Assembly: GCA_964537055.1 (NCBI GenBank)
Contig: CAZHYV010000004.1
Span: 46,172-110,171 of the forward strand
Direction: 5' to 3'
DNA from: an uncultured Myxococcales bacterium
GTDB taxonomy: Bacteria > Myxococcota_A > Polyangia > Palsa-1104 > JAEUJZ01
Length of the DNA: 64,000 bases
The notes below the pieces were generated by a model. That model was not told where the DNA came from. It searched no databases and saw only the letters and a program-made list of their open reading frames with translations. How positions within the stretch are numbered: position 1 is the first letter of the stretch; the number at the start of each line of letters is the position of its first letter. A program made the translations under genes and the position numbers. Positions 6,081 through 40,480 of this stretch are shown here, one piece after another.

Positions 6081-7361
6081 ATGCGTTCGTCGCGAATTCC
6101 AGGGTTTTTCCAAATGCCGGCCGAGCTTAGGCGGAAAGAGATTGCCACACGCTGCAAGCTATCCCAAGAAGAAGTGGATCATCTTCTCATGACAGGCCTT
6201 GATTTTTCCACCGCAGACCGAATGACCGAAAATGTCGTTGGTCTATTTAAGCTTCCTCTTTCGATTGCTACCAATTTCCAAATCAATGGAAAAGACTACC
6301 TCATTCCTCTTTGCATCGAAGAACCCTCGGTGGTTGCCGCCGCCTCCAGAGCAGCCCTTTTGGTCCGAGAGGGTGGTGGCTTTTCGGCTACTTCCGACCC
6401 ACCTGTTATGATTGGACAGGTTCAACTACTCGAGGTAAAGGATACGAAAGCGGCCAAAGAATCGCTCCTTGCTAGGCAAGATGAACTTATTTCTCTTGGG
6501 AACCAGATGGTGCCTTCCCTGGTTCGTCGTGGGGGCGGCTTGCGAGGAATCGAAGTACGTATTCTCACAGAAAGCCCATCCCCTCCTCGTCAAGCTACAG
6601 AACCACATCTTTCCTTCTCTACGACCTCAACCACGAAAGCCTCATCCTCAGTCATCTCATCCACAAGAGCCCTATCTCCTGGACAAACATCTTCCGGCGA
6701 AATGGTGATCCATCTTCTGGTTGATTGCCAAGATGCGATGGGTGCCAATCTGACCAACCAAGTCGCAGAATCTTTGGCCCCAAGGCTTGCCGAGCTTTCG
6801 ATGGGTCGCGTGGGACTACGCATCCTATCGAATCTTTCAATCTATCGGAAAGTCCAAGCAAAGTGTACCATTCCTGTAAGCACGCTTGCCTATCAATCTT
6901 TCTCAGGCGAAGAAATGCGAGACCGTATCATTTCGGCAAGTGATTTTGCCAAAAAAGATCCCTTTCGAGCAGCCACCCACAACAAAGGAATTATGAACGG
7001 GGTAGATGCGCTAGTGATCGCGACGGGGAATGATTTCCGTGCCGTAGAAGCAGGCGCACATGCCTACGCATCACTCTCGGGGAACTACCAGCCACTCGCC
7101 ATTTGGAGTAAAAGCAAAGAAGGGCACTTACAGGGAGAGCTAGAGATGCCTCTCTCGCTTGGAACCAAAGGAGGAACCCTTGCCGCCAGAAGGGATGTAG
7201 CCTTGGTACTTAAAATTCTCGAAATAGAGTCCGCCCAAGAACTTTCTCAGGTGGCTGGATGTGTAGGCCTTGCCACCAACCTTTCTGCGCTCCGGGCTCT
7301 TTCCAGTGGGGGCATCCAAAAAGCCCATATGCCTCTCCATTACCGATCAATCGCAAAATAG
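6081..7361 (+). CDS. mvaA: class II (NAD(P)H-dependent) HMG-CoA reductase with a Ser/Thr-rich low-complexity insertion
   Basis: ENVVG, DAMGAN and GTKGG-type motifs are present. It is collinear with Pseudomonas mevalonii HMGR except for a ~40 aa S/T-rich insert before the DAMGAN block. Confidence 0.85.
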   Translation: MRSSRIPGFFQMPAELRRKEIATRCKLSQEEVDHLLMTGLDFSTADRMTENVVGLFKLPLSIATNFQINGKDYLIPLCIEEPSVVAAASRAALLVREGGGFSATSDPPVMIGQVQLLEVKDTKAAKESLLARQDELISLGNQMVPSLVRRGGGLRGIEVRILTESPSPPRQATEPHLSFSTTSTTKASSSVISSTRALSPGQTSSGEMVIHLLVDCQDAMGANLTNQVAESLAPRLAELSMGRVGLRILSNLSIYRKVQAKCTIPVSTLAYQSFSGEEMRDRIISASDFAKKDPFRAATHNKGIMNGVDALVIATGNDFRAVEAGAHAYASLSGNYQPLAIWSKSKEGHLQGELEMPLSLGTKGGTLAARRDVALVLKILEIESAQELSQVAGCVGLATNLSALRALSSGGIQKAHMPLHYRSIAK

Positions 7362-8487: not shown

Positions 8488-9615
8488 TTACACCAGCTGC
8501 TGCAAAAACTTATATGCAGGACAAACACGAATTCCTTCCTTCGAAAGATAGTCTTTTTGCCCCATAAAAGAAATTTGCCAAGCTTCGCAATTGGGGAAAC
8601 GTGTTTTTAAATACAGAAGTCCTCTTCCAATGTCCGTATCATTCCATTTACAATCGATAAACCAAAGAGGCTTGCGGTTTTCCAGCACGACAAAATCAAC
8701 CTCCCGGCCATCTATATCACGGAAATATCGTAGCTCTACGTCCCTACCTTCTGCATCCTCTCGAAAATGCACCCATTTCAGTAAATGGGAAGCCACCATA
8801 TTCTCAAACCGCAATGAAGGCTCAGGAACTAAAGACCAATCAAAATGATAATGTTTTTGCTCCTTTTGAACAGCTCTTATCTTAGGCTGTAACTTCCCTC
8901 CCTGAAAAGGAAGCAGCCGAAAGATAGCATACAATCTTTCTAAAATACTTACCCATCGTGAAACAGTTTTATGGCTTGTCTGTAGATCTTCACGAAGAGA
9001 GTTAATGGATAAAGGGCTTCCCACCAGCTCAGGCAAACGTAGCGTAAGAAGTTCCATCTGTGATAAATCATTCACCCTCTCTAGGCTAGTAAGGTCTTCA
9101 TGGAGGAGACGATTTCGATACTCACGCGACCATCTCTTTGCTTCCATCTCAGATCCAATTAGAAAAGGCTCTGGAAAGCCTCCCAAAATAAGTAAATCAT
9201 TCAATTCTTTTTGAAGTGTCAGATTTAGCTCTTTAACTGAAAATGGATGCAGACGCAGATAATGATATCTCCCCTGAAGGGAGTCTCCACCAAACCGATA
9301 AAAGTCGAGACGAGCGCTTCCCATTACTAAAATTTGGTGTTTTTTATCATCGAGATCATAAGTACCCTTCAAATAACTTCGCCAGAGGCGATATTTATGA
9401 AGCTCATCAAAAACCCAAAGAGGCGATGGAGGAAATTGATGCTTCAAAATTCTTTCTCGATGGAGAGGAGAATCCCAGTTTAAATAACCCAAAGGCTCCT
9501 GTAAAAGCTGTTTTGCGATGGTCGTTTTCCCTACCTGCCTAGGTCCTCCTACAAACACCATCTTTCGTTTAAGATCAGCCTGAATTTGAGATTGGAGATA
9601 ACGTTCTTTTTTCAC
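8488..9615 (-). CDS. AAA+ ATPase of the AAA_14 + DUF4143 family (second paralogue)
   Basis: Walker A GGPRQVGKTT. Same architecture as 4458..5615. Confidence 0.8.
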   Translation of the reverse strand: MKKERYLQSQIQADLKRKMVFVGGPRQVGKTTIAKQLLQEPLGYLNWDSPLHRERILKHQFPPSPLWVFDELHKYRLWRSYLKGTYDLDDKKHQILVMGSARLDFYRFGGDSLQGRYHYLRLHPFSVKELNLTLQKELNDLLILGGFPEPFLIGSEMEAKRWSREYRNRLLHEDLTSLERVNDLSQMELLTLRLPELVGSPLSINSLREDLQTSHKTVSRWVSILERLYAIFRLLPFQGGKLQPKIRAVQKEQKHYHFDWSLVPEPSLRFENMVASHLLKWVHFREDAEGRDVELRYFRDIDGREVDFVVLENRKPLWFIDCKWNDTDIGRGLLYLKTRFPNCEAWQISFMGQKDYLSKEGIRVCPAYKFLQQLV

Positions 9616-11964: not shown

Positions 11965-12251
11965 CGAGATACATTCCTTTAGAAGTACCTTCTTTTAAAC
12001 GTGTTCTTACTAAGCGTATTCTTACCGTAACAACAGATTAAGTAGTTAGACTCTCATTGCAGGTCCTTATTCTTGTCGGAGAAAGTAGGAACATGTAGTC
12101 TGAAGTAATTACTTATCTCACGAATTTTCATACGATCTTTTACTTTTTTTCCTAACCAAAAATTTTTGTGTTAGGTTGCGCTCTCGTTAGGGCAGCAGAG
12201 AATACGTTTGCCCTTAATAACCCTGGTTGTAACTACCGTTTTGGAGATTTT

Positions 12252-13772
12252 ATGAAAACATATATTGCGCTTCTAGGAACCCTTCTTTTCCTTGCTTCTT
12301 GTAACTTTAGCATCCCGGCAAAGCCTTTTCCAGATCCAATGGATATGCCTCCCGTTGGAACACAAGATTTTAACGTAGCCAACATTGATACAAAATTCGG
12401 TGATACTAAAGGGGGAACGACCATCACCCTTACGGGCAAGGGGCTCACCCAAGATACCAAAGTGACGGTTGGCGATAAGGTAGCTGTGGTCAAAAGTGCA
12501 TCTGCAGACGGGACTAGCCTTCAATTCACTTTACCAGCAAGTCCAGGAACTGTGGGAAAGAAAACCATTACCCTCATGAACACAAAGGGTATGGTAGTCG
12601 AGTTAAAGGATGTGTTTACTTACTATTTAGGAAATATCTCTTTTACCAGTATGTCTTCAGCAGCAATTCTTAGTAGTACCTCTCCTTTGCATATTGCGGT
12701 AGCGAATCTTGATAATGACGCAAACAACATTCAAGATCTTGCCATTGTCAATATGGACAACCGAAACGTTGATATTCTGGTTGGGGACGGCCAAGGGAAC
12801 TTCAGCCTGAATCCAATCCTCCAGTTTAACTTTGGTGGTACTTACCATAATTTTTCTGCTACTGGAGATTTCAACAACGACGGTCTTACCGATTTAGCCA
12901 TTATCAGCCCAGGCGATAGTTTAATCGCGCTTGCCCAAAAACGTCCGGGAGCAACCAACGGTTTTGTTATTGAGGGAAACATAGGTTCTGGGAATATCCC
13001 AAATGCGATTGTTCTTGTGGATCTGGATGGAGATAACCGTCTTGACATTGCTGCAGCCAACACAGACACCACCAATATGAACCGTCTTAGCGTCTATCGT
13101 AATAATACTCCAGCCATGGGAGTCGTTACCTACCTTCCTCCCCAAAAACTTCCTCTGCCAACTGCCGTTTCCTCCCTCCTAGCAGCGGACCTGAACAAGG
13201 ATGGAAAAGTTGACTTGGTTGCTGCTTCCTCTACCAGCTTCCATGCCCTCCTTAACACAGGGATGGCCGCCACACTCTTTGCAGGCACTCCAGCGGACCA
13301 AGCTTTCTCAGGCTTTACTCCTCAGGCAGGGTTTTTTGCCCCTCTTTCGATGACCTCCTCATCTAACCAGATAGACCTTGCGTTTGTAGGAACGGATGGC
13401 ACCAACAAGACCATGGCTTTCTATGATAACACCTCTCCAGGGACCTCCCTTGCCTTTACCAAAAACACTGCCAGTGTGATGGTAGAGTCAGGCGTGGGAA
13501 ATCCGGCAAGCTCTCTAGCCATGGTTGATTTCAACAAAGATGGCTATAACGATTTTGTTGTCACCTCAGGTTCAACCATTCGGGTCTATCTTAGCAAAGC
13601 CTTAGAAGGAAAAGGCCTAGCTTTCGCAGATGCGATTGTATTCCAGACCGTAACACCTACGGTCCTAAGAGACATGAAATTGGTAGATACCAACGCAGAT
13701 GGATTAATGGATATCGTCACCATTTCTCGAAATGATGCAAAGGTCTACGTATTCCAAAATAGCTCAAACTAG
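12252..13772 (+). CDS. lipoprotein with an IPT/TIG domain followed by FG-GAP (integrin-alpha-like) repeats
   Basis: Start at the ATG with a GGAGA SD; lipobox LASC. DxNxDGxxD repeats: DFNNDGLTD, DLDGDNRLD, DLNKDGKVD, DFNKDGYND, DTNADGLMD. Confidence 0.75.
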   Translation: MKTYIALLGTLLFLASCNFSIPAKPFPDPMDMPPVGTQDFNVANIDTKFGDTKGGTTITLTGKGLTQDTKVTVGDKVAVVKSASADGTSLQFTLPASPGTVGKKTITLMNTKGMVVELKDVFTYYLGNISFTSMSSAAILSSTSPLHIAVANLDNDANNIQDLAIVNMDNRNVDILVGDGQGNFSLNPILQFNFGGTYHNFSATGDFNNDGLTDLAIISPGDSLIALAQKRPGATNGFVIEGNIGSGNIPNAIVLVDLDGDNRLDIAAANTDTTNMNRLSVYRNNTPAMGVVTYLPPQKLPLPTAVSSLLAADLNKDGKVDLVAASSTSFHALLNTGMAATLFAGTPADQAFSGFTPQAGFFAPLSMTSSSNQIDLAFVGTDGTNKTMAFYDNTSPGTSLAFTKNTASVMVESGVGNPASSLAMVDFNKDGYNDFVVTSGSTIRVYLSKALEGKGLAFADAIVFQTVTPTVLRDMKLVDTNADGLMDIVTISRNDAKVYVFQNSSN

Positions 13773-14067
13773 TCTTCCCCTCAAAAGCCGGCCTGATCGA
13801 AGGAAGGCCTGGTTGAGCGTTCTTTGCCTCATCTAGGCCTTCCCTTTTCGCCCTAACAGCCTACTATCTCCTACAAGCAGATTTCGTAATAACCTTTTAA
13901 GAAATTGGTGGCTTAGCTCTTCCTCAAGAAAAAACAAATTAGTCTGTATTTGCGCTTGAACCTGTGCTAAAATGAATAAACGTTTATCTTTCTAAAGCAC
14001 ATAGATAGACATGAAGCAAAAGAACGATCAAATGGTATCGTAGGTAATGAACGTAAAGGAGACAGTG

Positions 14068-15492
14068 ATGGGACAAAAACATTTATCTCAAATCTTTGGG
14101 GTCGTATTTCTGCTCTCTTCTCTAAGCTGTGGAACAAATTCCTCAGATCCAAATGGCGCTATTGATCCATCCCTACCCCCTAAAATTAAGTCCATCACCC
14201 CTGGCTCCGCAAAAACAAGCGGTGGCGAAGTCGTTTCGATCCAAGGAGAAAACTTCATTTCTGGAATTACTGTTTCCTTTGATGAGCAAGCTGCAGAGGA
14301 TATAGACCTGGTCTCTTCTACAGAAATTAAAGTTTTGGTGCCTAAACGGATAGGGATTCAAGGGAACGTTCCCGTAAAACTTACAAACCATACCTCTCAC
14401 GGAGCACTCTCTGATACGGCGACTGAACTATTTGCTTACTATCCCTCGTTGATGCAATTTGGTTCAATTCTCTCCGTCCAAGGAATGGTCCCCACTCTTG
14501 TTGCAACTTCTTTGAATATGACAGGTGATGGAAGGCCATCGCTTATAGCAAGCCAGACGAATAGCCAAACCAATGATACCGAGTTAAGCGTTTTTTTATA
14601 TAACTCTGTGACAAAGCAGTTTGTTGGTACTTCGTTTTACTCGACAAAAGAGGTTCCTACGGTAATGTCTAAAGCATTTTTGAATACCGATAACAAAGAA
14701 GATCTTCTTGTGGGTCTCTCCTCAGGAAAGATTTTACTGTTCTTCAATAATGGGGCAGGAAGCTTTGTTCCACCCATTACGCTAGTGCCCGCTATTACAG
14801 GGGCTGTTAAATTTCTTACCCCTGTAGACTACAATAAAGATGGGAATATGGATATCGGCGTTATGGTGGATAACTACCTTGGCTTTATTCATAATAACGG
14901 GGATGGAACCTTCGCCCTTTTAAAGATGGGATTTGCAGGAAATACTCCCACCTTTCCGGCGATGATTGATTATAACCATGATGGTTGGTTAGACTTTTTA
15001 GTAATCTCCAATGCCAGAACGTACTTACTTCAAGGGAACCCAGACGGAACTTTCCAAACGGCCTCTGGCATGAGTGAGATTGCCTCGCCAAAAGCTTTCG
15101 TGGTGTCTGACTTTAACAACGATAAGAAGGCAGATCTCTTGGTAGTGAAAGACAATGGTGGTGTCATAGAATCCAGCATATGGTTCGAACACGGAGGAGC
15201 TTTTCAGGCAAAAGATTCCCTACCTTTTGTAGAAATCCCTAAGAATATGATAGCAACTGACTTGAATGGAGATTCAATACTCGATCTAATCATTACAGGC
15301 GAAAGTATGATGTTTGCTCATCTTGGCAATGGAGATGGAACTTTCCAAGCGCCTACTTATTTCTCAAGCCCTGCGAAGAGCAGCTTGGTTACGATTGGGG
15401 ACCTCGACTTAGATACAAAGCCCGATATTCTAGTTTACTACCTCGACGGAATGAACCCTACTCTGGGACTTGTCCCGAACACATCCCAGTAA
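14068..15492 (+). CDS. secreted protein with an IPT/TIG domain and FG-GAP repeats (paralogue of 12252..13772)
   Basis: Start at the ATG with an AAGGAGA SD. Repeats DYNKDGNMD, DYNHDGWLD, DFNNDKKAD, DLNGDSILD. Confidence 0.75.
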   Translation: MGQKHLSQIFGVVFLLSSLSCGTNSSDPNGAIDPSLPPKIKSITPGSAKTSGGEVVSIQGENFISGITVSFDEQAAEDIDLVSSTEIKVLVPKRIGIQGNVPVKLTNHTSHGALSDTATELFAYYPSLMQFGSILSVQGMVPTLVATSLNMTGDGRPSLIASQTNSQTNDTELSVFLYNSVTKQFVGTSFYSTKEVPTVMSKAFLNTDNKEDLLVGLSSGKILLFFNNGAGSFVPPITLVPAITGAVKFLTPVDYNKDGNMDIGVMVDNYLGFIHNNGDGTFALLKMGFAGNTPTFPAMIDYNHDGWLDFLVISNARTYLLQGNPDGTFQTASGMSEIASPKAFVVSDFNNDKKADLLVVKDNGGVIESSIWFEHGGAFQAKDSLPFVEIPKNMIATDLNGDSILDLIITGESMMFAHLGNGDGTFQAPTYFSSPAKSSLVTIGDLDLDTKPDILVYYLDGMNPTLGLVPNTSQ

Positions 15493-15555
15493 GCAGGAAT
15501 ATGGGGAGATGCTCCGTTCACCCGCCCCTTTATCAAGTCCTAAGGACCCTCCCCG

Positions 15556-16611
15556 TTAAGAACGAATCAGCTTCAGTATATCCCTAATCGTAATGAGAAG
15601 GATCAATCCAAGCAGAAGCAAGAAGCCAATGGCATGGATCCATTGTTCGGCTTTCTTCGAGACGGATTTTCGGGTAATCATTTCCCAGCCGATAAATAAA
15701 AGCCGGCCGCCATCAAGAGCAGGAATGGGAAGCAGGTTAAAGAATCCTAATGCTGCACTAATGAGGGCAATCGTTTCAAGAGCTTCAATCACCCCAGCAC
15801 GAATCTGGCCCTTCAGCTGCCTTACAATTTGTACAGGCCCGCCTACCTCTTTTAAAGCTTTTCGGTCTGTAAACATCTTCTTAAACCCCTGGATCTGTGT
15901 CCAGGTAAGCGCCACGGGATAGATAAGCGCATTCTTTACAGCAGTCCCTAACCCAAGGTGCTGCCGCTCGATCTTAGGGATAGTGACTACCCCAATCCGC
16001 CAACTGTTCTCTTCAAACACAGGGGTCACCATGACGGTTTGCTTATCATGCCCCCTTTGAATCTCAATCACCATCGGATGACCGGCGGATTTCTGAATGC
16101 GTTCTACAAATTCATCAGGGGTCTTGATAAAAACACCATCCAAGGTGAGGATGGTATCCTTCATTTGGAGCCCTGCTTTTGCAGCTGGATATCCATCCAA
16201 GGCTTGTCCAACCATCACTCCCTCTTCCAAAGGAGTAGGCGTCCCTGCACTTAGGTTCAGACCCAATACCAGAAAGCAGGCAAATAGATAGTTGATCAGG
16301 GGCCCGGCAAGCACTACCAAAAACCGCTGCCAACCAGGCCGATTTGGATAAAGCCTAGGGTCTGCAGGATCGTTTTTCTTTTCTCCTTCTTCTTCAGGGT
16401 TCAGCCCGGCGATCTGTACATAACCTCCTAAGGGAATCGGAGCAATTTGGTAGGTCGTTTCTCCTATCTTCTTTGACCATAAGGCTGGACCAAATCCAAC
16501 CGAGAATTTATCCACCCGCATCCCGCAAGCACGAGCCATAAGCAAATGACCAAATTCATGAATGATCACCAAGAAACATAAAGCCAAAATGGCAAGAAGA
16601 ATAGAAAGCAT
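15556..16611 (-). CDS. rseP: RIP site-2 zinc metalloprotease RseP
   Basis: HEFGH motif in the first TM helix, a PDZ domain, and a C-terminal LDGG motif. Confidence 0.85.
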   Translation of the reverse strand: MLSILLAILALCFLVIIHEFGHLLMARACGMRVDKFSVGFGPALWSKKIGETTYQIAPIPLGGYVQIAGLNPEEEGEKKNDPADPRLYPNRPGWQRFLVVLAGPLINYLFACFLVLGLNLSAGTPTPLEEGVMVGQALDGYPAAKAGLQMKDTILTLDGVFIKTPDEFVERIQKSAGHPMVIEIQRGHDKQTVMVTPVFEENSWRIGVVTIPKIERQHLGLGTAVKNALIYPVALTWTQIQGFKKMFTDRKALKEVGGPVQIVRQLKGQIRAGVIEALETIALISAALGFFNLLPIPALDGGRLLFIGWEMITRKSVSKKAEQWIHAIGFLLLLGLILLITIRDILKLIRS

Positions 16612-16745
16612 AAGCTAAACGTACTCCGGATTTGTAGATTCGGCAATGAAGAATCTTGCAAATTCTTCCTTCTCCATTAATTCTTGCAGGCCCAAAGAGC
16701 TTCTTCTATAATCTGTAAACCCTACACCAAGGCACAAAGAGGATC

Positions 16746-17924
16746 ATGACTATGCATGAAAGTTTTATTTTCAAACAGATTCAACGTGGAAACCGAAATC
16801 TTGTCATTTTCAGCCTTTTCTGGATCTTCTTTGCGGTCGCAGGTCTTATTTACAAGAACAACTTTTTCAAACATCTTTTTACTTCGAAGATAACCCCACC
16901 TAGCGAAGTTTACGAATTGAAAGACGAACAATCCTCAAAAGGGAAATTTGTTCGTTTAGAAGCAAACGAAATTTTCAATTTATTTTATGTAGAATATGAG
17001 CAACAAGAAGGGTCGAAATCGTCACAGACAGATCTTGCCCAATTTTGGGCCGTGATGATTTCGCCCTCTGCAGACAAAAACATCGCCGCTGTAAACACCC
17101 CTGTTGAGAAAAAAATCCTAATCGTAAAATTTGATATCAAAGATCCACGCGTTAAAGATCATTTGGAAAATACGGAATTTTTAGAGCTGGTCGGAAAGGC
17201 CCAGCGCCTTGAGGGAGAGCTACAGCCATTTCCAACCTATCTAAAAAGTTATGCAAATAAAAATTTTAAAGATCTCCCTCTTGTCCCCGTGATGCTTGAT
17301 ACGAGAAATCAACGTCTGGATTCCTACCTAACTCTGGGGATTGGAGTACTTGTTCTCTCTGCAGGATTTTGGGGGCTTTATTTAGCCTACCGACGCTCGA
17401 AAGATCCAAGCCTTCACCCAATTAGCCGAGCAATTGCGAAGGTGGACACATTCGATGTTGTTGTAAATAAAATTGAAGCAGAAATGCAACGGCCGGATGT
17501 TAACCACATTGGACCTTTTACGATTTCAAAATCTTGGTTTTTCCGTAAATACCTTTTTGGAGCTCATGTTCTTTACCTTCCTGATTTGGTTTGGGTCTAT
17601 AAACAGGTGACCCAGCACCGTCATAACGGAATCCCCTCAGGAAAAACTTATGAACTTATTTGTTGGAAAAGAGATGGAAGCAAGCTAGCCCTTCATACCC
17701 GTAAAAAGCAAAGTGATCAGGTATTAGAAGCGTTAATCCAAAAGGTGCCCTATGTAATTTATGGATTTTCGGAAGAGCTAAAAAAGACCTGGGCCTCTAA
17801 CAGAGCCGATATGATCGCTGCAATTGATGCACAACGAAAACCTCCTTCTCCGTCGTTTGCCCCTGAACGCCCTAATCCTGAACCTCCACAGGAAATCAAT
17901 AACTCCGGGTATGCGCTTCCTTAG
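16746..17924 (+). CDS. hypothetical membrane protein with a Pro-rich C-terminus
   Basis: Two predicted TM helices; no known motifs. Confidence 0.45.
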   Translation: MTMHESFIFKQIQRGNRNLVIFSLFWIFFAVAGLIYKNNFFKHLFTSKITPPSEVYELKDEQSSKGKFVRLEANEIFNLFYVEYEQQEGSKSSQTDLAQFWAVMISPSADKNIAAVNTPVEKKILIVKFDIKDPRVKDHLENTEFLELVGKAQRLEGELQPFPTYLKSYANKNFKDLPLVPVMLDTRNQRLDSYLTLGIGVLVLSAGFWGLYLAYRRSKDPSLHPISRAIAKVDTFDVVVNKIEAEMQRPDVNHIGPFTISKSWFFRKYLFGAHVLYLPDLVWVYKQVTQHRHNGIPSGKTYELICWKRDGSKLALHTRKKQSDQVLEALIQKVPYVIYGFSEELKKTWASNRADMIAAIDAQRKPPSPSFAPERPNPEPPQEINNSGYALP

Positions 17925-18087
17925 GCGTCTCTGAAAATACTTGATTCCGAAGGCTCTTAAGAATTGCTATCCCGTTTTTCTGCTGATCCTGTACGGTCCA
18001 TGTACGTTTCTGTCGTTGAGGTACGGCAGAATTACATATTATTTGTTTGTCTTGCATGCACGTTGTCACGCATGTTACGATAAGTAT

Positions 18088-19923
18088 GTGCATACTTTAT
18101 CTGTTTATTTCAAGCAAATCCATAAAGTTCTCCTTACTATTCTGTTTATAGGAATAGCAAGTTGCTCACGTTCTCAAAACCCCTCTTTGGGGAGTTCCAA
18201 CGCTTCCTTTTTATGTCCCCAAGATGATCTATATGAATCTTGCCAAGCACTGCTCCGGCTTCATCAGCATCAGATCGGACAAAACGGAGGGTGGAAATCC
18301 GAATTATTTCAGCGCACCTGGGTAAAATCATCGAATATTTGCGATTGGCAGGGAGTCCGCTGTAGAGATAAGAAAGTCTTCGAACTCGATTTTACTGGGG
18401 CTGGAATTACCTCACTGCCTGAGCAACCTTTTGCAGGAATGGATGATCTGTCCGAAGTCATGTTAGGCTCTAACTTCATCCGCGTTCTTCCTCAGAAAAC
18501 ATTTGCTAGCCTCCCTTCTTTAACAAAGGTTTTTTTGAACAACACCTTAATTGAAGAAATTCAAGAGAATAGTTTCTCAGGCACATCAAATCTACAAGTA
18601 CTAGAATTAAAACAATCCCCTATTGTCAATGTGCATCCAAATGCATTTGCCGATTTGAAGAAGTTACAGGCACTATCGATTTCTCTTAAGAATCCTCAAG
18701 CTCTTCAAGCAATTCGCCGACTCTCCTCTCTAGAGAGGCTCGACATTCATCTTGATTTTCCAGACCTGCCGGCGAATGCATTTTTGGGTCTTTCGAGTTT
18801 GAAAAAGCTGCTTATCGAAAATTCTAGTCAACTTCATTCTATTTCTGCCGATGCCTTTCAATCATTATCAAATGTAGAAGAGTTCGTCTTTAACACGACA
18901 AATATTGGAGAATTTCCAGCTTTCTTATTTACCCCTCTAAAAAATGTAAGAACTTTATTCTTAGTAGGGCACCCAAGCCTAACCCAAATATCTCCTTTCG
19001 CATTTTCGGCTCTTATGAAGCTTGAATTTCTTGTAATGAGAAATTTCTCTCAGATCCAAGTTTTCCCTCCTTTTCTATTAAGCGATCTAAGTGCGTTAAA
19101 AGTTCTTCAAATGTCTGGGCATCCGTTGTGGAAGTCTATACCCGCTAACTTTTTTGAACATCTTCACACTTTAGAAACCCTACGATTGGAAGATAATGGG
19201 CTGGTAGAATTATCCAGCAAAACCTTTTCTGGCTTAATTAATCTGAAAGAGCTTGAGTGTAACAATAATCAGATCGTGAGTCTTTATTCTCAAACTTTTT
19301 CTACAATATCAGCAGTCAGGGTCATTAGCCTTAGGAACAATAAGATCTCAGTGCTTCCTAGCAATGTATTTTCTGTTATGACGAGTTTAGAAAGTTTAGA
19401 TCTTTCTTCTAATGAAATTTCTGTACTAGATAGGCAATCTTTTTTCGGTCTGCTTCAATTAAAACTACTTAAGTTATCATATAATAGAATTTTTGATCTA
19501 AGTGGAAACGTATTCGAATTTATACCAGCTCTGAGAAGTTTACACCTCTCTTCAAATCCCTTAGCTACCGTTCCGCAGGATCTGCTTTTACCTCTTTCGC
19601 AATTAAGCAATCTTTATTTGTCAGATACATCTTTAAAATCGATTCCAGAAAATTTCTTCAGAAGACAATTGAGATTGATGTGGCTTGATTTATCAAGCAA
19701 TCGTTTAGAAAACTTGTCTACTTCTTTTTTTGAAGAGCTAAAAAATGTGAGACAGCTGTATTTACAAGGAAATCCACTTCAAACAGTCGATGAAAGAAAT
19801 TTCGATTTACTCGAGTCTTTAGTCCATCTCGACTTAACAAATACTCCCGTCTCTACTTCACTCAACCTTAGCTCGATTACATGTTCACGAGCTACTGTAT
19901 TGCCGAACCGAATGTGTTTTTGA
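18088..19923 (+). CDS. eukaryote-like leucine-rich repeat protein with an LRRNT_2-like Cys/Trp N-terminal cap
   Basis: More than 20 LxxLxxLxLxxN repeats. Cap CDWQGVRC. A GTG start at 18088 gives a signal peptide ending LLTILFIGIASCS. The true start is uncertain; the ORF track opens at 17941. Confidence 0.7.
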   Translation: MHTLSVYFKQIHKVLLTILFIGIASCSRSQNPSLGSSNASFLCPQDDLYESCQALLRLHQHQIGQNGGWKSELFQRTWVKSSNICDWQGVRCRDKKVFELDFTGAGITSLPEQPFAGMDDLSEVMLGSNFIRVLPQKTFASLPSLTKVFLNNTLIEEIQENSFSGTSNLQVLELKQSPIVNVHPNAFADLKKLQALSISLKNPQALQAIRRLSSLERLDIHLDFPDLPANAFLGLSSLKKLLIENSSQLHSISADAFQSLSNVEEFVFNTTNIGEFPAFLFTPLKNVRTLFLVGHPSLTQISPFAFSALMKLEFLVMRNFSQIQVFPPFLLSDLSALKVLQMSGHPLWKSIPANFFEHLHTLETLRLEDNGLVELSSKTFSGLINLKELECNNNQIVSLYSQTFSTISAVRVISLRNNKISVLPSNVFSVMTSLESLDLSSNEISVLDRQSFFGLLQLKLLKLSYNRIFDLSGNVFEFIPALRSLHLSSNPLATVPQDLLLPLSQLSNLYLSDTSLKSIPENFFRRQLRLMWLDLSSNRLENLSTSFFEELKNVRQLYLQGNPLQTVDERNFDLLESLVHLDLTNTPVSTSLNLSSITCSRATVLPNRMCF

Positions 19924-19958
19924 AAGATAATTAATTAGTGATCACAGGAGAATTTTCC

Positions 19959-21260
19959 ATGGTGTTTGGATCTATACTTCAAAATCTCCGGAACTTCGGA
20001 TGGCTGCTTGTGACTGTCATAGTTCTTAGCGAATGCTCGAAAACAAGACCACCTTCTGCGGTACAAGAGCAACCTCCTGTTCCCCCAGATCAACAATGTG
20101 CACAGGGACCTCTTTACGATGCCTGTAAATCTCTAATCGCTATTCACGAACTGATGCCAGCCTCCTCTTGGAATATAGGGCATAATAAAACTTGGTTAAG
20201 AAAAAACAATTTGTGTGAATGGGAAGGCGTTTTATGCAATCAAACCTCGGAACGTGTTGTTGGTTTATCGCTGATAGGATATAGTAACGCAATAAATGTA
20301 GTTACATTTCCTCCGTCTGTATTCCTAGGCCTTCGAGATTTAGAAGCGTTAGAAATTTCCCAATTCCACCTTAAACTTCAATCTCAGCAATTTGCTTCTC
20401 TTACCAAATTAAAACGCTTGGTCATTGCCGAGAATTTGATCGATGAAGAGATTCCAGAAACGACCTTTCAAAATCTACGAAGTCTTGAAATTCTAGAGCT
20501 CTCAAAAAATAAGTATAATCGACCTTGGCTTTTACCCACTGATCTATTTCAAGATTTGATCTCTCTTACGCAACTTCATCTTGAGAGAAACGGGTTTCTC
20601 CAAGTTCCTCAAGGGTGGTTTAAATCATTGAAGCAACTAACTTACTTAGATATCTCTGGTAACCAAATTACGGCCTTGTCGCGGGGTATTCTACAGGGGT
20701 TAGAAAATGTGTCGATTTTAGAGGCTGCAGAAAATCAGATTGGAAGCCTTCCTGTAGACACATTCTTTGATATGGCACTGCTAGCACGCTTAAATCTAAG
20801 TAACAACTCTCTTACGGTTCTCCCAGAGCGCTTGCTAGAATCAAATTTATTTCTGCGCTCTATCAATCTATCGGAGAACCAGTTTCATAGTCTGCCTGAG
20901 CTTCTCTTCCGAAATCAAGAATTCCTCCTCAGCCTCGACCTGTCAGGAAATTATTTCCAAAGACCGTTGCCCAACGGTCTCTTTGCAAACTTGTCAAACC
21001 TAGAAGATTTGGACCTAAGCAGAACAGGACTTCAGAAGCTCTCCTCTACTTGGTTTGCACTACCCCGTTTACGAAATCTTCAATTAAGTGAGAATCTTAT
21101 TGTTCTTGACTCTGCTGTGGTATTTGACCAGCTTCGCAACATCCTTTTTATCAATTTGGGAGAAAACAACCTACCAAACACTGCGAGAGTATCTGCAACC
21201 ACTTGTACCCAGCTAAAACTGAACCAGGGATTGATCTATCCTCAATTTCTGTGCCCCTAG
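19959..21260 (+). CDS. eukaryote-like leucine-rich repeat protein (tandem paralogue) with an LRRNT_2-like cap
   Basis: ATG at 19959 with an AGGAG SD. Cap NLCEWEGVLC, followed by ~15 LRRs. Confidence 0.75.
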   Translation: MVFGSILQNLRNFGWLLVTVIVLSECSKTRPPSAVQEQPPVPPDQQCAQGPLYDACKSLIAIHELMPASSWNIGHNKTWLRKNNLCEWEGVLCNQTSERVVGLSLIGYSNAINVVTFPPSVFLGLRDLEALEISQFHLKLQSQQFASLTKLKRLVIAENLIDEEIPETTFQNLRSLEILELSKNKYNRPWLLPTDLFQDLISLTQLHLERNGFLQVPQGWFKSLKQLTYLDISGNQITALSRGILQGLENVSILEAAENQIGSLPVDTFFDMALLARLNLSNNSLTVLPERLLESNLFLRSINLSENQFHSLPELLFRNQEFLLSLDLSGNYFQRPLPNGLFANLSNLEDLDLSRTGLQKLSSTWFALPRLRNLQLSENLIVLDSAVVFDQLRNILFINLGENNLPNTARVSATTCTQLKLNQGLIYPQFLCP

Positions 21261-22233: not shown

Positions 22234-22493
22234 GATCTGGATCTTGACATTCGATTTCAGAGTCTGGCAAGCTATTTTCGTTTTAGTAACTTGTAGTGAC
22301 AAAAGCAATCGGCCGAATCGTGAATGAGCACCCTCTATTATGATCCTTTCTTTACACTTCTTGAGAAGGCAACTGTTTGCCCCAGCCCACCTTCTTACCT
22401 CACCCATACAGTGTACAATGCAAATGGACATTCCCCTCAGCGTCTTACGACAGCGCAGATGGCTGCGCGTTCGGCCAAGATAAGGAAAAACTA

Positions 22494-25001
22494 ATGTTTG
22501 ATTCTCTGCATACCAAAGATGTAAAAGAACCCTCTCCAGAATCTGAAGACCTACTTACGAAAGAACTCTCTCTAGAACCTCCTATTTCTTCGGTGTTAGA
22601 AGAATCCGCACATATTAAAGTGCCCCCGAAGTCTACACACGATCCCTTAGCAAAAGATTTTAAAGAGCTAGGTGTTCGCTCGGAGATCTTAGAAGCACTC
22701 CAGACGATGGGATTTACCAAGGCGTTCCCCGTACAAAGTCAGACCTTCCATCCAGCCATGATGGGACAAGATCTGATCATACAGGCACGCACAGGCTCTG
22801 GAAAGACGGCGGCCTTTGTGATTCCTCTTGTCCAGGGCCTTCTAGAGCGCCAAGGAACGGCTCAAGCGGGCAGGCCGTACATCCTCGTCCTGGTTCCCAC
22901 GCGGGAACTCGCACTCCAAGTGACAAAAGAATTTCAAAAAATTGCGGCGCATACCTCCATCTCTTCCACTGCTATTTACGGTGGAGCCCCGATGGGAGCA
23001 CAGGTAGATCTTCTTTCTAAAGGCGTGCATGTTGTGGTAGGTACGCCAGGGAGAGTTTTAGATCATCTTCGGCGAGGCACGCTAGATTTTACATCTGTGC
23101 GCACTTTGGTTCTTGATGAAGCAGATGAGATGTTTTCCCGAGGATTTTATGAAGACATCCACGAGCTAATAAAACAGTGTCCCTCTGATAAACAAACTCT
23201 CCTGTTCTCGGCCACCATGCCGGCAGATGTCGAGCGGTTGTGTCAGAAAGTGATGCGTCATCCAACCAAGATTCAGCTCTCAAGCGATTTTGTAAGTGCG
23301 CTTGAGATCGAGCACTCGTACTATATGGTATCGGGGATGGCAAGATGCCGAGATCTTTTGCGGGTTTTAGACATAGAATCGCCCGAATCTGCCATCATTT
23401 TCTGCAATACCCGAGAGGAAACCGCAGAAGTGGCCGAATTTCTACGAGCTCAAGGGCTTTCTGCAGGTTCTATCTCTGGAAGCCTCACACAGAAACAGCG
23501 TGAGCGGGTTATATCCCTGATGCGTGCTGGAAAGATTAGATATTTGGTAGCGACGGACATTGCTGCGCGTGGGATTGATATTAGTCACATTACCCATGTG
23601 TTTAATTACATGTTTCCCGAGTCGTCCGAAGTTTATATTCACCGAACAGGACGTACGGGCCGTGCAGGTCGTGCAGGCAAAGCAATTTCTTTAATTGGGC
23701 CAAGGGAATTAGGAAACTTTTATACCTTCAAGCTCACCTACAAACTTCGTCCAAGCGAAAAAACATTTCCAAAAACAGAGGAGCTCGATGCTCTTCGAGA
23801 AAAGCAATACCTGGCTCGTCTTAAGCAAGAGATTCTACGAGATCCAAGCCCTCTCTTTTATTCCCTGGTACGAAAGCTGAGCCAAACAAAAGAAGGGGAG
23901 CGGTTGCTCGCCGTGCTGGTAGAGAAATTCGTCACGGCCCCGATGGTTACAGAGGAGCTCGATTTCTCCTCAGGCCTCGAAGAGCAAGAGAATCCGCCAC
24001 AGGAAGACACGGCCCTACCCTCAAACGAACGCTCCAAACCGCAAGATCACCCCGCCAGAGAATCGCGACGAGGAAACAGGGAGCCCCGCAATTCTTTTTC
24101 AAAGGAACGCACTGGGAGAGAACAAACTGGGAGAGAACGAACCAGTAGGGAGCAGACCAGCAGAGAACAAATGGGTGATGCAGAGGAACATCATCGATCC
24201 TCTCGAGGTTCTTCTGAACATCGTAGGAAAACTAAAGAATCCCCCTCTCAGGAACGAGGATTCTCTTCTGCTACGGAGAGACCAAGAAGATCTCGTGACA
24301 AACGCAAACAAGAGCAACCCGTTTCGTCCTCGTCTGCAAGCGGTTCTCACACCTCTTTAGATAGAGAGCCAAATTCTTCTAAGGAAAGCTCTTCAAGAGA
24401 AAATGTATCCAAAGAAACCGATTCTTATCAGGTTATACATGAGCCCATCCAGCTAACTGAAGGGCGAGAATACTGGGAAGCCTGGATTGACTCTCGTCAA
24501 CCTGGGCCTTCTCTGTCCGAAGAAATGCAATCTTCAAACGGGCAGGAATCCAACTCCACAAGCGCTACTACACCCAAACCTTCCGCCGAGGAAACATCGT
24601 CCTTTACAGACACTCCCTCGACAAAAGCTTCTCATGCTAAATCCTTACGGAAATCTCGGAATCGGCGGAAACCAACAGGCACCTCGACACAAGAGAATTC
24701 CCAAGCATCCGAACAGCATGCCAAGCAAACTGAAGACATGAAAGACGTCCACTCAAATGCAGATGCTAAAGCAGCTTCCCCACCAAAGGTCTATATTAAT
24801 CTGGGCAAGCGCCACGGATTTACCCAAGAGCGCCTGCAGGAGCTTTTGTCAGCTCAGAACTTACCTCAATTCCCCACGCAGGTCCGCCTCACCCATAGTT
24901 ATCTCTTCCCCACAGAAGAATCCTTAGCCCAAGTGGTAAGTGCTCTTAATGGGCAGGTGGTAGACAATCGTACGATCCTGTGCGAACGGGCTCGGAAGTG
25001 A
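22494..25001 (+). CDS. deaD: DEAD-box ATP-dependent RNA helicase (DeaD/CsdA-like) with a long R/S/E-rich low-complexity linker and a C-terminal DbpA RNA-binding domain
   Basis: Q-motif, AQTGSGKT, DEAD, SAT and HRTGRTGRAG motifs are present. The start is at the ATG with an AAGGA SD. Confidence 0.85.
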   Translation: MFDSLHTKDVKEPSPESEDLLTKELSLEPPISSVLEESAHIKVPPKSTHDPLAKDFKELGVRSEILEALQTMGFTKAFPVQSQTFHPAMMGQDLIIQARTGSGKTAAFVIPLVQGLLERQGTAQAGRPYILVLVPTRELALQVTKEFQKIAAHTSISSTAIYGGAPMGAQVDLLSKGVHVVVGTPGRVLDHLRRGTLDFTSVRTLVLDEADEMFSRGFYEDIHELIKQCPSDKQTLLFSATMPADVERLCQKVMRHPTKIQLSSDFVSALEIEHSYYMVSGMARCRDLLRVLDIESPESAIIFCNTREETAEVAEFLRAQGLSAGSISGSLTQKQRERVISLMRAGKIRYLVATDIAARGIDISHITHVFNYMFPESSEVYIHRTGRTGRAGRAGKAISLIGPRELGNFYTFKLTYKLRPSEKTFPKTEELDALREKQYLARLKQEILRDPSPLFYSLVRKLSQTKEGERLLAVLVEKFVTAPMVTEELDFSSGLEEQENPPQEDTALPSNERSKPQDHPARESRRGNREPRNSFSKERTGREQTGRERTSREQTSREQMGDAEEHHRSSRGSSEHRRKTKESPSQERGFSSATERPRRSRDKRKQEQPVSSSSASGSHTSLDREPNSSKESSSRENVSKETDSYQVIHEPIQLTEGREYWEAWIDSRQPGPSLSEEMQSSNGQESNSTSATTPKPSAEETSSFTDTPSTKASHAKSLRKSRNRRKPTGTSTQENSQASEQHAKQTEDMKDVHSNADAKAASPPKVYINLGKRHGFTQERLQELLSAQNLPQFPTQVRLTHSYLFPTEESLAQVVSALNGQVVDNRTILCERARK

Positions 25002-40442: not shown

Positions 40443-40480
40443 AAAATCCCCCACAGGCTTGCTCGCCTCCAAAGGGATCT

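What the first reader, a model, noticed from the sequence alone, without database searches (positions are those of the whole stretch)
18088..21260. Tandem pair of eukaryote-like LRR proteins with a plant-type LRRNT_2-like N-terminal cap
Two adjacent secreted proteins consist almost entirely of 24-residue LxxLxxLxLxxNxL repeats. Each is preceded by a Cys/Trp cap (ESCQALL...W...NICDWQGVRC and DACKSLIAI...W...NLCEWEGVLC) matching the ...C.W.GV.C pattern of the LRRNT_2 cap of plant receptor-like kinases. Such proteins in bacteria are typically host-interaction or effector-like and are often horizontally acquired. The true 5' end of the first gene is ambiguous: GTG at 18088 versus upstream.
Basis: partly seen in the sequence, partly recalled or inferred. 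Interest (0 to 1): 0.6.

Follow-up and report, generated by a model that had tools for sequence, protein, structure and literature searches.

The report
Tandem capped LRR lipoproteins, Myxococcota-like bacterium
Two neighbouring genes of an uncultured Myxococcota-like bacterium encode exported leucine-rich-repeat proteins that start with a cysteine/tryptophan cap. The cap belongs to the family named after plant receptors, but it is closest to a version found in many bacteria, so this is a real but fairly ordinary new member of a known kind, not evidence of a gene taken from a plant.

Summary
p1 (18088-19923, 611 aa) and p2 (best start 19959, to 21260, 433 aa) are adjacent same-strand paralogues. 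Each has a signal peptide ending in Cys, a short disordered linker, a 4-Cys/2-Trp cap ending in C-x-W-x-G-V-x-C, about 21 or 13 LRRs, and a C-terminal Cys pair.

The cap scores below Pfam's LRRNT_2 cut-off (14.7 and 14.0 bits against 20.7). Four other results place it in that superfamily:
- An exhaustive profile search returned 86 other proteins, almost all LRR proteins; 41 of 56 scanned carry LRRNT_2.
- hhalign against plant caps gives 94.8 % probability.
- The weak PDB sequence matches are mostly plant N-caps.

- The cap subtype matches modules in Chloroflexota, Anaerolineales, Beggiatoa and Pseudomonadota rather than the plant form.
- The repeats are the 24-residue 'typical' class, not the plant-specific class.
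- The proteins look like Sec/Lol-exported lipoproteins, not injected effectors.
- No donor or orthologue was found; low GC3 is only a weak hint of foreign origin.

Most likely they are disulfide-stabilised, outer-membrane-anchored ligand-binding scaffolds (adhesins or receptors). Interest is low to moderate.

The parts
18088..19923 (+). p1 coding sequence (611 aa, GTG start, stop included)
   Evidence: ORF. The same 611-aa gene call is on the independent Logan contig L002, which is 100 % identical. LRR_8 E 1.4e-68.
18088..18165 (+). p1 lipoprotein signal peptide: n-region MHTLSVYFKQIHK, h-region VLLTILFIGIA, lipobox I-A-S-C with Cys26
   Evidence: Sequence and hydropathy. The lipobox matches [LVI][ASTVI][GAS]C (established rule, my own knowledge).
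18166..18204 (+). p1 Ser/Asn-rich linker after the lipidated Cys (SRSQNPSLGSSNA)
   Evidence: Sequence. The equivalent stretch of the p2 model has low pLDDT.
18205..18369 (+). p1 N-terminal cap (residues 40-94): C43, helix with C52, W69, W78, C85-x-W-x-G-V-x-C92
18376..19881 (+). p1 LRR solenoid, about 21 repeats of the 'typical' class
   Evidence: Repeat parse. Pfam. Class consensus from PMC2946307.
19882..19920 (+). p1 C-terminal tail with Cys pair (C599-x10-C610)
   Evidence: Cys positions. A parallel pair is present in p2.
19946..19950 (+). AGGAG ribosome-binding site, 8 nt before the p2 ATG
   Evidence: Sequence.
19959..21260 (+). p2 coding sequence (433 aa, ATG start, stop included). The GTG at 19938 given in the finding is an in-frame upstream alternative.
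   Evidence: RBS. P0127 is the 433-aa form in NCBI. LRR_8 E 1.5e-41.
19959..20036 (+). p2 signal peptide (MVFGSILQNLRNFG / WLLVTVIVL / L-S-E-C). The Cys is at the same place as in p1, but the lipobox is not canonical because of Glu at -1.
   Evidence: aligned with the p1 signal peptide.
20037..20087 (+). p2 Pro-rich linker (SKTRPPSAVQEQPPVPP)
   Evidence: Sequence. pLDDT 53-72 in the model.
20088..20243 (+). p2 N-terminal cap (residues 44-95 of the 433-aa form): four Cys, two Trp, NLCEWEGVLC
   Evidence: Pfam LRRNT_2 E 0.061, 14.0 bits.
20250..21203 (+). p2 LRR solenoid, about 13 repeats of the 'typical' class
   Evidence: AF2 mean pLDDT 89.6, pTM 0.89. Foldseek matches to Toll, LGR4/5, Nogo receptor, LRRTM2 and Leptospira LRR proteins.
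21204..21257 (+). p2 C-terminal tail with Cys pair (C416-x15-C432 of the 433-aa form)
   Evidence: The last 10 residues have low model confidence.

Best explanation
p1 and p2 are old tandem paralogues, 27 % identical overall and 37-39 % in the cap. They encode envelope LRR proteins of an uncultured Myxococcota-like bacterium.

Proposed mechanism:
1. Each protein is exported by Sec.
2. The Cys that ends the signal peptide is lipid-modified. This is nearly certain for p1 (canonical lipobox) and likely but unproven for p2.
3. A 13-17-residue disordered tether follows the Cys. There is no Lys at +2 and no Ala at +7, so the default destination is the outer membrane.
4. The folded part is a curved LRR solenoid of the 24-residue 'typical' class. 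Its hydrophobic core is sealed at the N-terminus by a disulfide-stabilised helix-plus-hairpin cap of the LRRNT_2 superfamily, in the bacterial 4-Cys/2-Trp subtype. At the C-terminus it is sealed by a short tail with a Cys pair.
5. As in other LRR ectodomains, the concave beta-sheet is the ligand-binding face.

The most likely role is binding of a protein or glycan ligand at the cell surface or in the periplasm. That could be adhesion to prey, substrate or matrix, or receptor-like sensing. Two other families of integrin-like FG-GAP/TIG lipoproteins are encoded nearby.

Shown: gene structure, signal peptides, LRR class, cap homology and predicted fold.
Inferred: lipidation, disulfides, outer-membrane location and ligand binding.
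Unknown: the ligand.
For: Genes and starts.
LRR identity and class: (PMC2946307).

Cap homology:
- The cap profile searched against 1.84 billion representatives gave 87 hits at E<=1e-3: p2 itself and 86 others.
- 44 of 46 scanned in one batch are LRR proteins.
- 41 of 56 scanned carry Pfam LRRNT_2 at E<=1e-3.
- hhalign against five plant caps that were found independently through the LRR body gives 94.8 % probability, E 5.4e-8.
- The cap profile against PDB gives weak matches (E 0.04-1.5). 18 of the 24 listed are N-caps of plant LRR receptor ectodomains or the carrot antifreeze protein, aligned at their caps.

Structure:
- p2 model: pLDDT 89.6, pTM 0.89.
- p1 cap plus four LRRs: pLDDT 90.0.

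Bacterial subtype: alignment and HMM scores. Sources are Beggiatoa, Chloroflexota, Anaerolineales and Pseudomonadota MAGs. T9SS sorting domains and Big domains occur in further hits.

Sorting rule: M. xanthus inner-membrane lipoproteins have Lys at +2 and matrix lipoproteins Ala at +7 (PMC3222651). p1 is CSRSQNPS and p2 is CSKTRPPS.

Taxon: the best named LepA relatives, at 73-80 % identity, are mostly Myxococcales/Polyangia MAGs, plus one labelled Pseudomonadota.

Context: FG-GAP/TIG lipoproteins, RseP and DUF6709 lie upstream.
Against: - The Pfam LRRNT_2 score is below the gathering threshold in both proteins, and only the C-terminal half of the model matches.
- hhalign aligns only 19 columns.
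- The p1 cap model was built with an alignment that contained five plant sequences, so its agreement with plant structures is partly circular.
- The bacterial comparison set was retrieved with the p1/p2 cap profile itself. That favours it in the score comparison.
- The p2 lipobox (LSEC) is not canonical.
- There is no direct evidence for location, disulfides or a ligand.
- The M. xanthus sorting rules come from a distant relative.
Confidence: 0.6

Rival explanations
1. The genes are eukaryote-derived, taken from a plant, alga or animal by horizontal transfer, and act as secreted effectors or mimics in an interaction with a eukaryotic host.
For: - The best full-length matches are animal LRR proteins such as artichoke, chaoptin, TLR13 and LGR5/6.
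- Nogo receptor is 35-36 % identical over about 92 residues.
- The cap motif NLCEWEG also occurs in a eukaryotic metatranscriptome protein (L004) and in diatom proteins.
- p1 has the lowest GC3 of 40 genes (z -2.65) and p2 has z -1.69.
- No orthologue appears in 1.84 billion representatives.
Against: - Identity to animal proteins is 24-30 % overall and confined to the repeat consensus. No animal LRRNT or LRRCT cap is detected.
- The cap carries the extra helix Cys and second Trp of the bacterial modules and scores higher against them than against plants.
- Both genes have bacterial signal peptides ending in Cys, an AGGAG site and tight operon-like spacing, and they sit among housekeeping genes.
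- T3SS effector models score far below their cut-offs.
- Three other genes in the window have similarly low GC3.
- The closest LepA relative that can be traced to a sample comes from a bioreactor metagenome, not a host.
Confidence: 0.12
2. The two proteins work inside the envelope rather than on outside targets. They could be periplasm-facing partners of the adjacent DUF6709 membrane protein or of the RseP regulated-proteolysis pathway, for example as a sensor or scaffold.
For: - DUF6709 (16746-17924), p1 and p2 lie on the same strand with gaps of 163 and 35 nt, and RseP is immediately upstream on the other strand.
- DUF6709 also has low GC3 (z -1.73), so the three genes may share a history.
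- Outer-membrane lipoproteins of Gram-negative bacteria face the periplasm by default (general knowledge).
Against: - The adjacency is seen in one genome only, so conservation of the neighbourhood could not be tested.
- No known functional link between DUF6709 and LRR proteins was found.
- No promoter or terminator signal exceeds what shuffled sequence gives.
Confidence: 0.2
3. The feature is an assembly artefact or contamination: eukaryotic LRR sequence joined by error to a bacterial contig.
For: The proteins resemble eukaryotic LRR proteins, and GC falls to 0.38 over the two genes against 0.44-0.47 in the adjacent 2-kb windows.
Against: - An independent Logan assembly of run SRR11567520 reproduces the junction RseP-DUF6709-p1-p2 at 100 % identity over 7,356 bases. 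A second run, SRR11567529, yielded a 1,877-base contig identical to window 15220-17096, which shows the same organism there but does not reach p1.
- The genes have no introns and carry bacterial signal peptides and an RBS.
Confidence: 0.02

Closest known systems
Plant LRR receptor-kinase and receptor-like-protein ectodomains with the LRRNT_2 cap (PF08263), e.g. PGIP 1OGQ, PEPR1 5GR8, GSO1 6S6Q, LRX2 6QXP, SERK1/BAK1
   Same: - An N-terminal helix is followed by W...C-x-W-x-G-V-x-C directly before the first LRR strand. The first Cys (LCPxD) is at the same column as in plant RLPs and PGIP.
- Cys pairs flank the LRR domain at both ends.
   Different: - Pfam scores are below threshold.
- The second Cys lies in the helix instead of forming the plant CC doublet, and there is an extra Trp.
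- The repeats are the 'typical' class with no LxGxIP motif.
- The anchor is a lipid, not a transmembrane helix with a kinase.
Bacterial and diatom multi-module proteins with repeated 4-Cys LRRNT_2-like caps, e.g. Beggiatoa OQY56073.1, Chloroflexota MEM7532851.1 and MEM7536290.1, Anaerolineales MDM8527199.1, Pseudomonadota S8 peptidase MEN8217501.1, and Attheya and Cylindrotheca proteins
   Same: - In the bacterial modules the cap pattern is C ... (E)C-x-AL-x-x-L ... W ... W(L) ... C-x-W-x-G-V-x-C, with the same four Cys and two Trp. The diatom modules shown keep the two Trp but lack one or both of the first two Cys.
- The bacterial modules give the best profile scores for the p1 and p2 caps.
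- Some of these proteins also follow the cap with LRRs that are not the plant-specific class (P0201, P0204, P0207, P0151).
   Different: - Those proteins are 500-7,800 aa long with 2-10 caps. 62 of 69 have plant-specific-class repeats after the caps.
- p1 and p2 have one cap, a C-x8-C rather than C-x11-C spacing, 24-residue typical repeats and a lipoprotein signal.
- Per-module similarity is at most 35 bits, so none is an orthologue.
Animal 'typical'-class LRR ectodomains: Nogo receptor 1OZN/5O0R, LRRTM2 5A5C, Toll 4LXR, LGR4/5, IGF-binding-protein acid-labile subunit 7WRQ
   Same: - Repeat length and consensus are the same, LxxLxLxxNxLxxLPxxxFxxL.
- These are the best sequence and Foldseek matches of the solenoid body.
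   Different: - No animal LRRNT or LRRCT cap (PF01462/PF01463) is detected in p1 or p2.
- Alignments stop at the cap.
Leptospira LRR lipoproteins (LIC10831 4U06, LIC11098 4U08, LIC12759 4U09; NCBIfam NF047464 LIC_11051 fibronectin-binding family)
   Same: They are bacterial proteins that consist almost only of LRRs, and they are good structural matches. That they are lipoproteins acting as adhesins is from my own knowledge.
   Different: - The NF047464 score is 71 and 61 bits against a cut-off of 1000, so p1 and p2 are not members.
- From my own knowledge, Leptospira repeats are 23 residues long and lack an LRRNT_2-like cap.
Type III secreted LRR effectors (XopAC, XopAE, XopL, SlrP/IpaH)
   Same: They contain LRRs.
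   Different: - Scores are 27-66 bits against cut-offs of 450-1113.
- p1 and p2 have Sec signal peptides and no enzymatic effector domain.

Membership tests
Leucine-rich repeat superfamily, 'typical' class | Tandem 20-30-residue repeats with LxxLxLxxNxL | tested here: met
   LRR_8 E 1.4e-68 and 1.5e-41. About 21 and 13 repeats parsed.
Leucine-rich repeat superfamily, 'typical' class | Variable segment xxLPxxoFxxLxx with a 24-residue period (PMC2946307) | tested here: met
   Consensus LxxLxLxxNxIxxLPxxxFxxLxx. 15 of the p1 units and 6 of the p2 units are exactly 24 residues.
Leucine-rich repeat superfamily, 'typical' class | Curved solenoid fold | tested here: met
   AF2 pLDDT 89.6, pTM 0.89. 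748 PDB matches at E<=1e-3; all 50 listed are LRR proteins. This rests on a prediction, not a solved structure.
LRRNT_2 (Pfam PF08263) | Score at or above Pfam's gathering threshold (20.7 bits) | tested here: not met
   14.7 bits (E 0.038) and 14.0 bits (E 0.061), matching model positions about 20-41 only.
LRRNT_2 (Pfam PF08263) | W...C-x-W-x-G-V-x-C with a Cys pair directly before the first LRR strand | tested here: met
   NICDWQGVRC and NLCEWEGVLC. These are the only two matches in the six-frame translation of the window.
LRRNT_2 (Pfam PF08263) | Preceding amphipathic helix (ALLxxK-like) | tested here: met
   QALLRLHQ and KSLIAIHE align with plant ALLxFK, with one Leu invariant across all seven sequences. 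Helices are predicted at that place in both models. The profile comparisons do not align this half.
LRRNT_2 (Pfam PF08263) | Profile-level homology to accepted members | tested here: met
   The cap profile retrieves 86 other proteins. 41 of 56 scanned have LRRNT_2 at E<=1e-3. hhalign gives 94.8 % against independently obtained plant caps.
LRRNT_2 (Pfam PF08263) | Same three-dimensional cap as in solved plant ectodomains | tested here: inconclusive
Plant-type LRR ectodomain architecture (LRRNT_2 plus plant-specific LRRs) | Repeats of the plant-specific class, LxxLxLxxNxLxGxIPxxLxxL | tested here: not met
   The LxLxxNxLxGxIP motif has no match in the 200 residues after either cap, whereas 62 of 69 cap-bearing hits have it. 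The consensus of all parsed repeats is the typical class.
Bacterial lipoproteins (Lgt/LspA substrates) | Signal peptide ending in the lipobox [LVI][ASTVI][GAS]C | tested here: met
   p1: I-A-S-C after a 25-residue n/h-region. This is sequence only; lipidation was not tested.
Bacterial lipoproteins (Lgt/LspA substrates) | The same lipobox, in p2 | tested here: inconclusive
   p2: L-S-E-C. The Cys is at the homologous position, but Glu at -1 is outside the consensus.
Type III secreted LRR effectors (XopAC, XopAE, XopL, SlrP) | NCBIfam model score above the curated cut-off | tested here: not met
   27-66 bits against cut-offs of 450-1113.
LIC_11051 fibronectin-binding family and internalins | NCBIfam model score above the curated cut-off | tested here: not met
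   71 and 61 bits against 1000. Internalin models score 16-40 bits against 1050-1600.
Known anti-phage defence proteins (PADLOC) | Match to any PADLOC model | tested here: not met
   No match for DUF6709, p1 or p2.

The most novel reading that the evidence does not exclude
p1 and p2 could be the first seen members of a lineage-restricted bacterial 'receptor-like protein' design: the LRRNT_2-type cap known from plant immune and developmental receptors, fused to an animal-like typical-class LRR body and tethered to the outer membrane by a lipid. Under this reading they recognise molecules of prey or of a eukaryotic partner. Together with the many bacterial cap-bearing proteins found here, this would suggest that the 'plant' ectodomain cap is an old bacterial invention that reached eukaryotes, rather than the reverse.
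Probability: 0.12. Interest if true: 0.5.

Novelty: new member of a known kind. Interest (0 to 1): 0.27.

Why it matters
- It shows that the cap named 'plant-type' by Pfam is not a marker of plant origin. A 4-Cys/2-Trp version is common in Chloroflexota, Beggiatoa, Pseudomonadota and T9SS-bearing bacteria, and a two-Trp version occurs in diatoms. Such matches in bacterial genomes should not be read as plant-to-bacterium transfer.
- For this organism, it identifies two probable surface or envelope ligand-binding lipoproteins that have no close relatives in public data. They are candidates for adhesion or recognition in an uncultured Myxococcota-like lineage.
- The practical yield is modest: corrected gene starts and a clearer classification, not a new mechanism.

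Tried and rejected
- Full-length search with p1: only repeat-level matches at 24-30 % identity, and the only hits with the cap motif were plants.
- Word-seeded search with the cap alignment: one call failed on a parameter, the other found nothing.
- Genome-contig scans with p2 and with MutS2: no relative of p2, and only a 33 % MutS2 match in a Nitrospirales MAG. Synteny in related genomes therefore could not be examined.
- Metagenome scan with the cap: two short eukaryotic contigs with plant-specific LRRs and a Hint-like C-terminus. They are not relatives.
- Exact look-ups: neighbours are singletons at 90 % identity. p1 is not in the collection. No NCBI record name could be obtained.
- Literature searches for the run accession and for LRRNT_2 in bacteria, diatoms or Myxococcota: nothing directly relevant.
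- Promoter and terminator scan: no more sites than in shuffled sequence.
- tblastn of the cap against plasmids: no significant match.
- PADLOC: no defence family for p1, p2 or DUF6709.
- The contig of the closest traceable LepA relative (86 %): only LepA-LepB-TsaE are syntenic, there is no LRR gene within 10 kb, and the LRR locus could not be reached.
- The afdb50 fold library was unavailable.
- Rejected ideas: assembly artefact, T3SS effector, animal-type LRRNT/LRRCT caps, and membership in the internalin or LIC_11051 families.


Full report
**What is there**

Window 18088-21260 holds two adjacent ORFs on the + strand. p1 runs from GTG 18088 to 19923 (611 aa). p2 ends at 21260. The finding starts p2 at GTG 19938, but ATG 19959 has AGGAG 8 nt upstream, and its 433-aa product is the form on record from NCBI (P0127).

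For p1, GTG 18088 gives a textbook lipoprotein signal peptide: n-region MHTLSVYFKQIHK, h-region VLLTILFIGIA, lipobox IAS|C. The same 611-aa gene was called on an independent Logan contig that is 100 % identical to window 13694-21049. Upstream TTG starts would add a Cys/His-rich stretch of 15-49 residues with no signal-peptide character.

p2 has the same layout, with Cys at the homologous place, but its lipobox (LSEC) is not canonical. Lipidation of p2 is therefore less certain.

**The repeats**

Pfam LRR_8 matches at E 1.4e-68 and 1.5e-41. A repeat parse gives about 21 LRRs in p1 and about 13 in p2, with consensus LxxLxLxxNxIxxLPxxxFxxLxx. That is the 24-residue 'typical' class as defined in PMC2946307. 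It is not the plant-specific class: the LxLxxNxLxGxIP motif has no match in the 200 residues after either cap.

Accordingly, the best sequence and fold matches of the body are animal ectodomains: artichoke, chaoptin, TLR13, LGR4/5/6, Toll, Nogo receptor, LRRTM2 and IGFALS. Leptospira LRR proteins also match. Identities are 24-30 % over the full length and reach 35-36 % over about 92 residues for Nogo receptor. This is similarity at the level of the repeat consensus. The AlphaFold model of mature p2 is confident (pLDDT 89.6, pTM 0.89).

**The cap**

Both proteins carry a region of about 55 residues between a short low-complexity linker and the first LRR. It has four Cys and two Trp and ends in NICDWQGVRC or NLCEWEGVLC. 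The pattern C.W.G[VIL].C occurs only at these two places in the six-frame translation of the window.

Pfam LRRNT_2 matches both proteins, but below its threshold (14.7 and 14.0 bits against 20.7) and only over the second half of the model. Four further tests support homology.

1. A profile of the two caps was searched exhaustively against 1.84 billion representative proteins. It gave 87 hits at E<=1e-3: p2 itself and 86 others. Of 46 scanned in one batch, 44 are LRR proteins. Of 56 scanned with Pfam, 41 carry LRRNT_2 at E<=1e-3.
2. hhalign of the two caps against five plant caps gives 94.8 % probability (E 5.4e-8), over 19 columns. Those plant proteins had been retrieved through the LRR body, not the cap.
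3. Against PDB sequences the cap profile gives only weak matches (E 0.04-1.5). 18 of the 24 listed are N-caps of plant LRR receptor ectodomains or the carrot antifreeze protein, including ERL1/2, GSO1, BRI1, TDR and TMK3, aligned at their caps.

The fourth test is partly circular, because the alignment used for that model contained five plant sequences.

**Which kind of cap**

The hits of the exhaustive search are not mainly plants. Named sources are:
- diatoms (Cylindrotheca, Attheya);
- one Brassica protein;
- bacteria: Beggiatoa/Parabeggiatoa, two Chloroflexota MAGs, an Anaerolineales genome and a Pseudomonadota MAG in which the modules sit in an S8 peptidase.

Further hits carry T9SS sorting domains and bacterial Ig-like domains.

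In the bacterial proteins the cap reads C-x11-(E)C-x-AL-x-x-LY-x-x-T-x-G-x-x-W-x5-WL-x5-C-x-W-x-G-V-x-C. p1 and p2 share the second Cys at the start of the helix and the additional Trp. Plant caps instead have a CC doublet and a single Trp. A small HMM of seven bacterial modules scores p1 and p2 at 45.7 and 39.7 bits; one of four plant caps scores 28.2 and 30.4 bits. The bacterial set had been selected with the p1/p2 profile, which favours it.

After the cap, 62 of 69 hits have plant-specific-class repeats. Several bacterial proteins follow it with other LRR classes (P0201, P0204, P0207, P0151). The combination seen in p1 and p2 is therefore unusual but not without precedent.

**Organism and context**

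The window is ordinary bacterial chromosome. It encodes tRNA-Pro, CorA, DNA polymerase III delta', RseP, MutS2, a DEAD-box helicase, LepA, PheT, GltX and a large PAS histidine kinase. LepA is 73-80 % identical to proteins named mostly from Myxococcales and Polyangia MAGs (one is labelled Pseudomonadota), and 86-87 % identical to unnamed metagenome proteins. All proteins looked up are singletons at 90 % identity, on a 251,739-base NCBI contig.

The local gene order is: two FG-GAP/TIG predicted lipoproteins, RseP (-), DUF6709 (+), p1, p2, and a 2-hydroxyacid dehydrogenase (-). No other LRR gene or cap is present in the window.

**Origin**

p1 has the lowest GC3 of the 40 genes in the window (0.329, z -2.65) and p2 is also low (0.372, z -1.69). 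Three other genes, including DUF6709, are similarly low. No orthologue of either cap exists among representatives of about 15 billion proteins, although relatives of the organism are in those data. The pair is therefore lineage-restricted and not broadly vertical.

No donor can be named, and the cap points to bacteria rather than to plants. Synteny in relatives could not be checked. Both genome scans failed, and the contig of the closest traceable relative, from a bioreactor metagenome, shares only LepA-LepB-TsaE.

**Mechanism**

The best-supported reading has five steps.
1. Sec export.
2. Lipidation at the Cys that ends the signal peptide.
3. A disordered tether after that Cys.
4. Transfer to the outer membrane. 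Neither protein has the +2 Lys that marks inner-membrane lipoproteins of Myxococcus xanthus, nor the +7 Ala that marks its matrix lipoproteins (PMC3222651; sequences).
5. A solenoid closed by disulfide-stabilised caps at both ends, which binds a ligand on its concave face.

Only steps 1 and 5 (as a fold) rest on direct sequence or model evidence. Lipidation, disulfides, location and ligand are inferences.

Models for T3SS effectors, internalins and the Leptospira LIC_11051 family all score far below their cut-offs, and no defence-system model matches. An assembly artefact is excluded by the independent identical contig.

**Verdict**

It overreaches on 'plant-type', 'effector-like' and horizontal acquisition from eukaryotes. 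This is a new, divergent member of a known kind: bacterial LRR lipoproteins with an LRRNT_2-superfamily cap. Interest is low to moderate.

Noticed in passing
window 8488-9615 (-): An AAA_14/DUF4143 ATPase matches the PADLOC candidate defence family PDC-S01 (E 1.4e-42). It has unusually low GC3 (z -2.19), so it may be a mobile or defence-related gene.
   Followed up: partly
window 12168-13772 and 14047-15492 (+); 38370-40472 and 41429-43462 (-): Two pairs of FG-GAP proteins are present. The first pair also has an IPT/TIG domain and a lipoprotein-like signal peptide. The genome seems rich in integrin-like surface modules, which fits a surface-recognition role for the LRR pair.
   Followed up: partly
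window 22377-25001 (+): The DEAD-box helicase ORF carries a low-complexity C-terminal tail of about 430 residues, rich in Ser, Arg, Glu and Lys. Its longest-ORF start overlaps the 5' end of the divergent 2-hydroxyacid dehydrogenase ORF, so both real starts are probably further in.
   Followed up: no
window 16746-17924 (+): A DUF6709 membrane protein lies directly upstream of p1 on the same strand and also has low GC3 (z -1.73). It may belong to the same unit as the LRR pair.
   Followed up: partly
window 6081-7361 (+): An HMG-CoA reductase gene, indicating a mevalonate pathway in this bacterium.
   Followed up: no
proteins P0128-P0213 (hits): In other bacteria and in diatoms the same cap recurs 2-10 times inside proteins of 500-7,800 aa, with periods of about 250 or 370 residues. 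Each cap precedes a short block of mostly plant-specific-class LRRs. Some of these proteins carry T9SS sorting domains or an S8 peptidase. This repeated cap-plus-LRR cassette architecture seems little described.
   Followed up: partly
p1, window 18088-19923: p1 is missing from the protein collections that hold p2 and all tested neighbours, although a gene call for it exists on the Logan contig. The reason is unknown; it is probably a gap in the collection.
   Followed up: partly
L004 16-1929 (+) (metagenome contig Ga0314686_10017218): A eukaryotic-looking protein combines an ESNLCEWEGITC cap, plant-specific-class LRRs, a Pro/Ser-rich spacer and a C-terminal region that looks Hint/Hedgehog-like by eye.
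   Followed up: no
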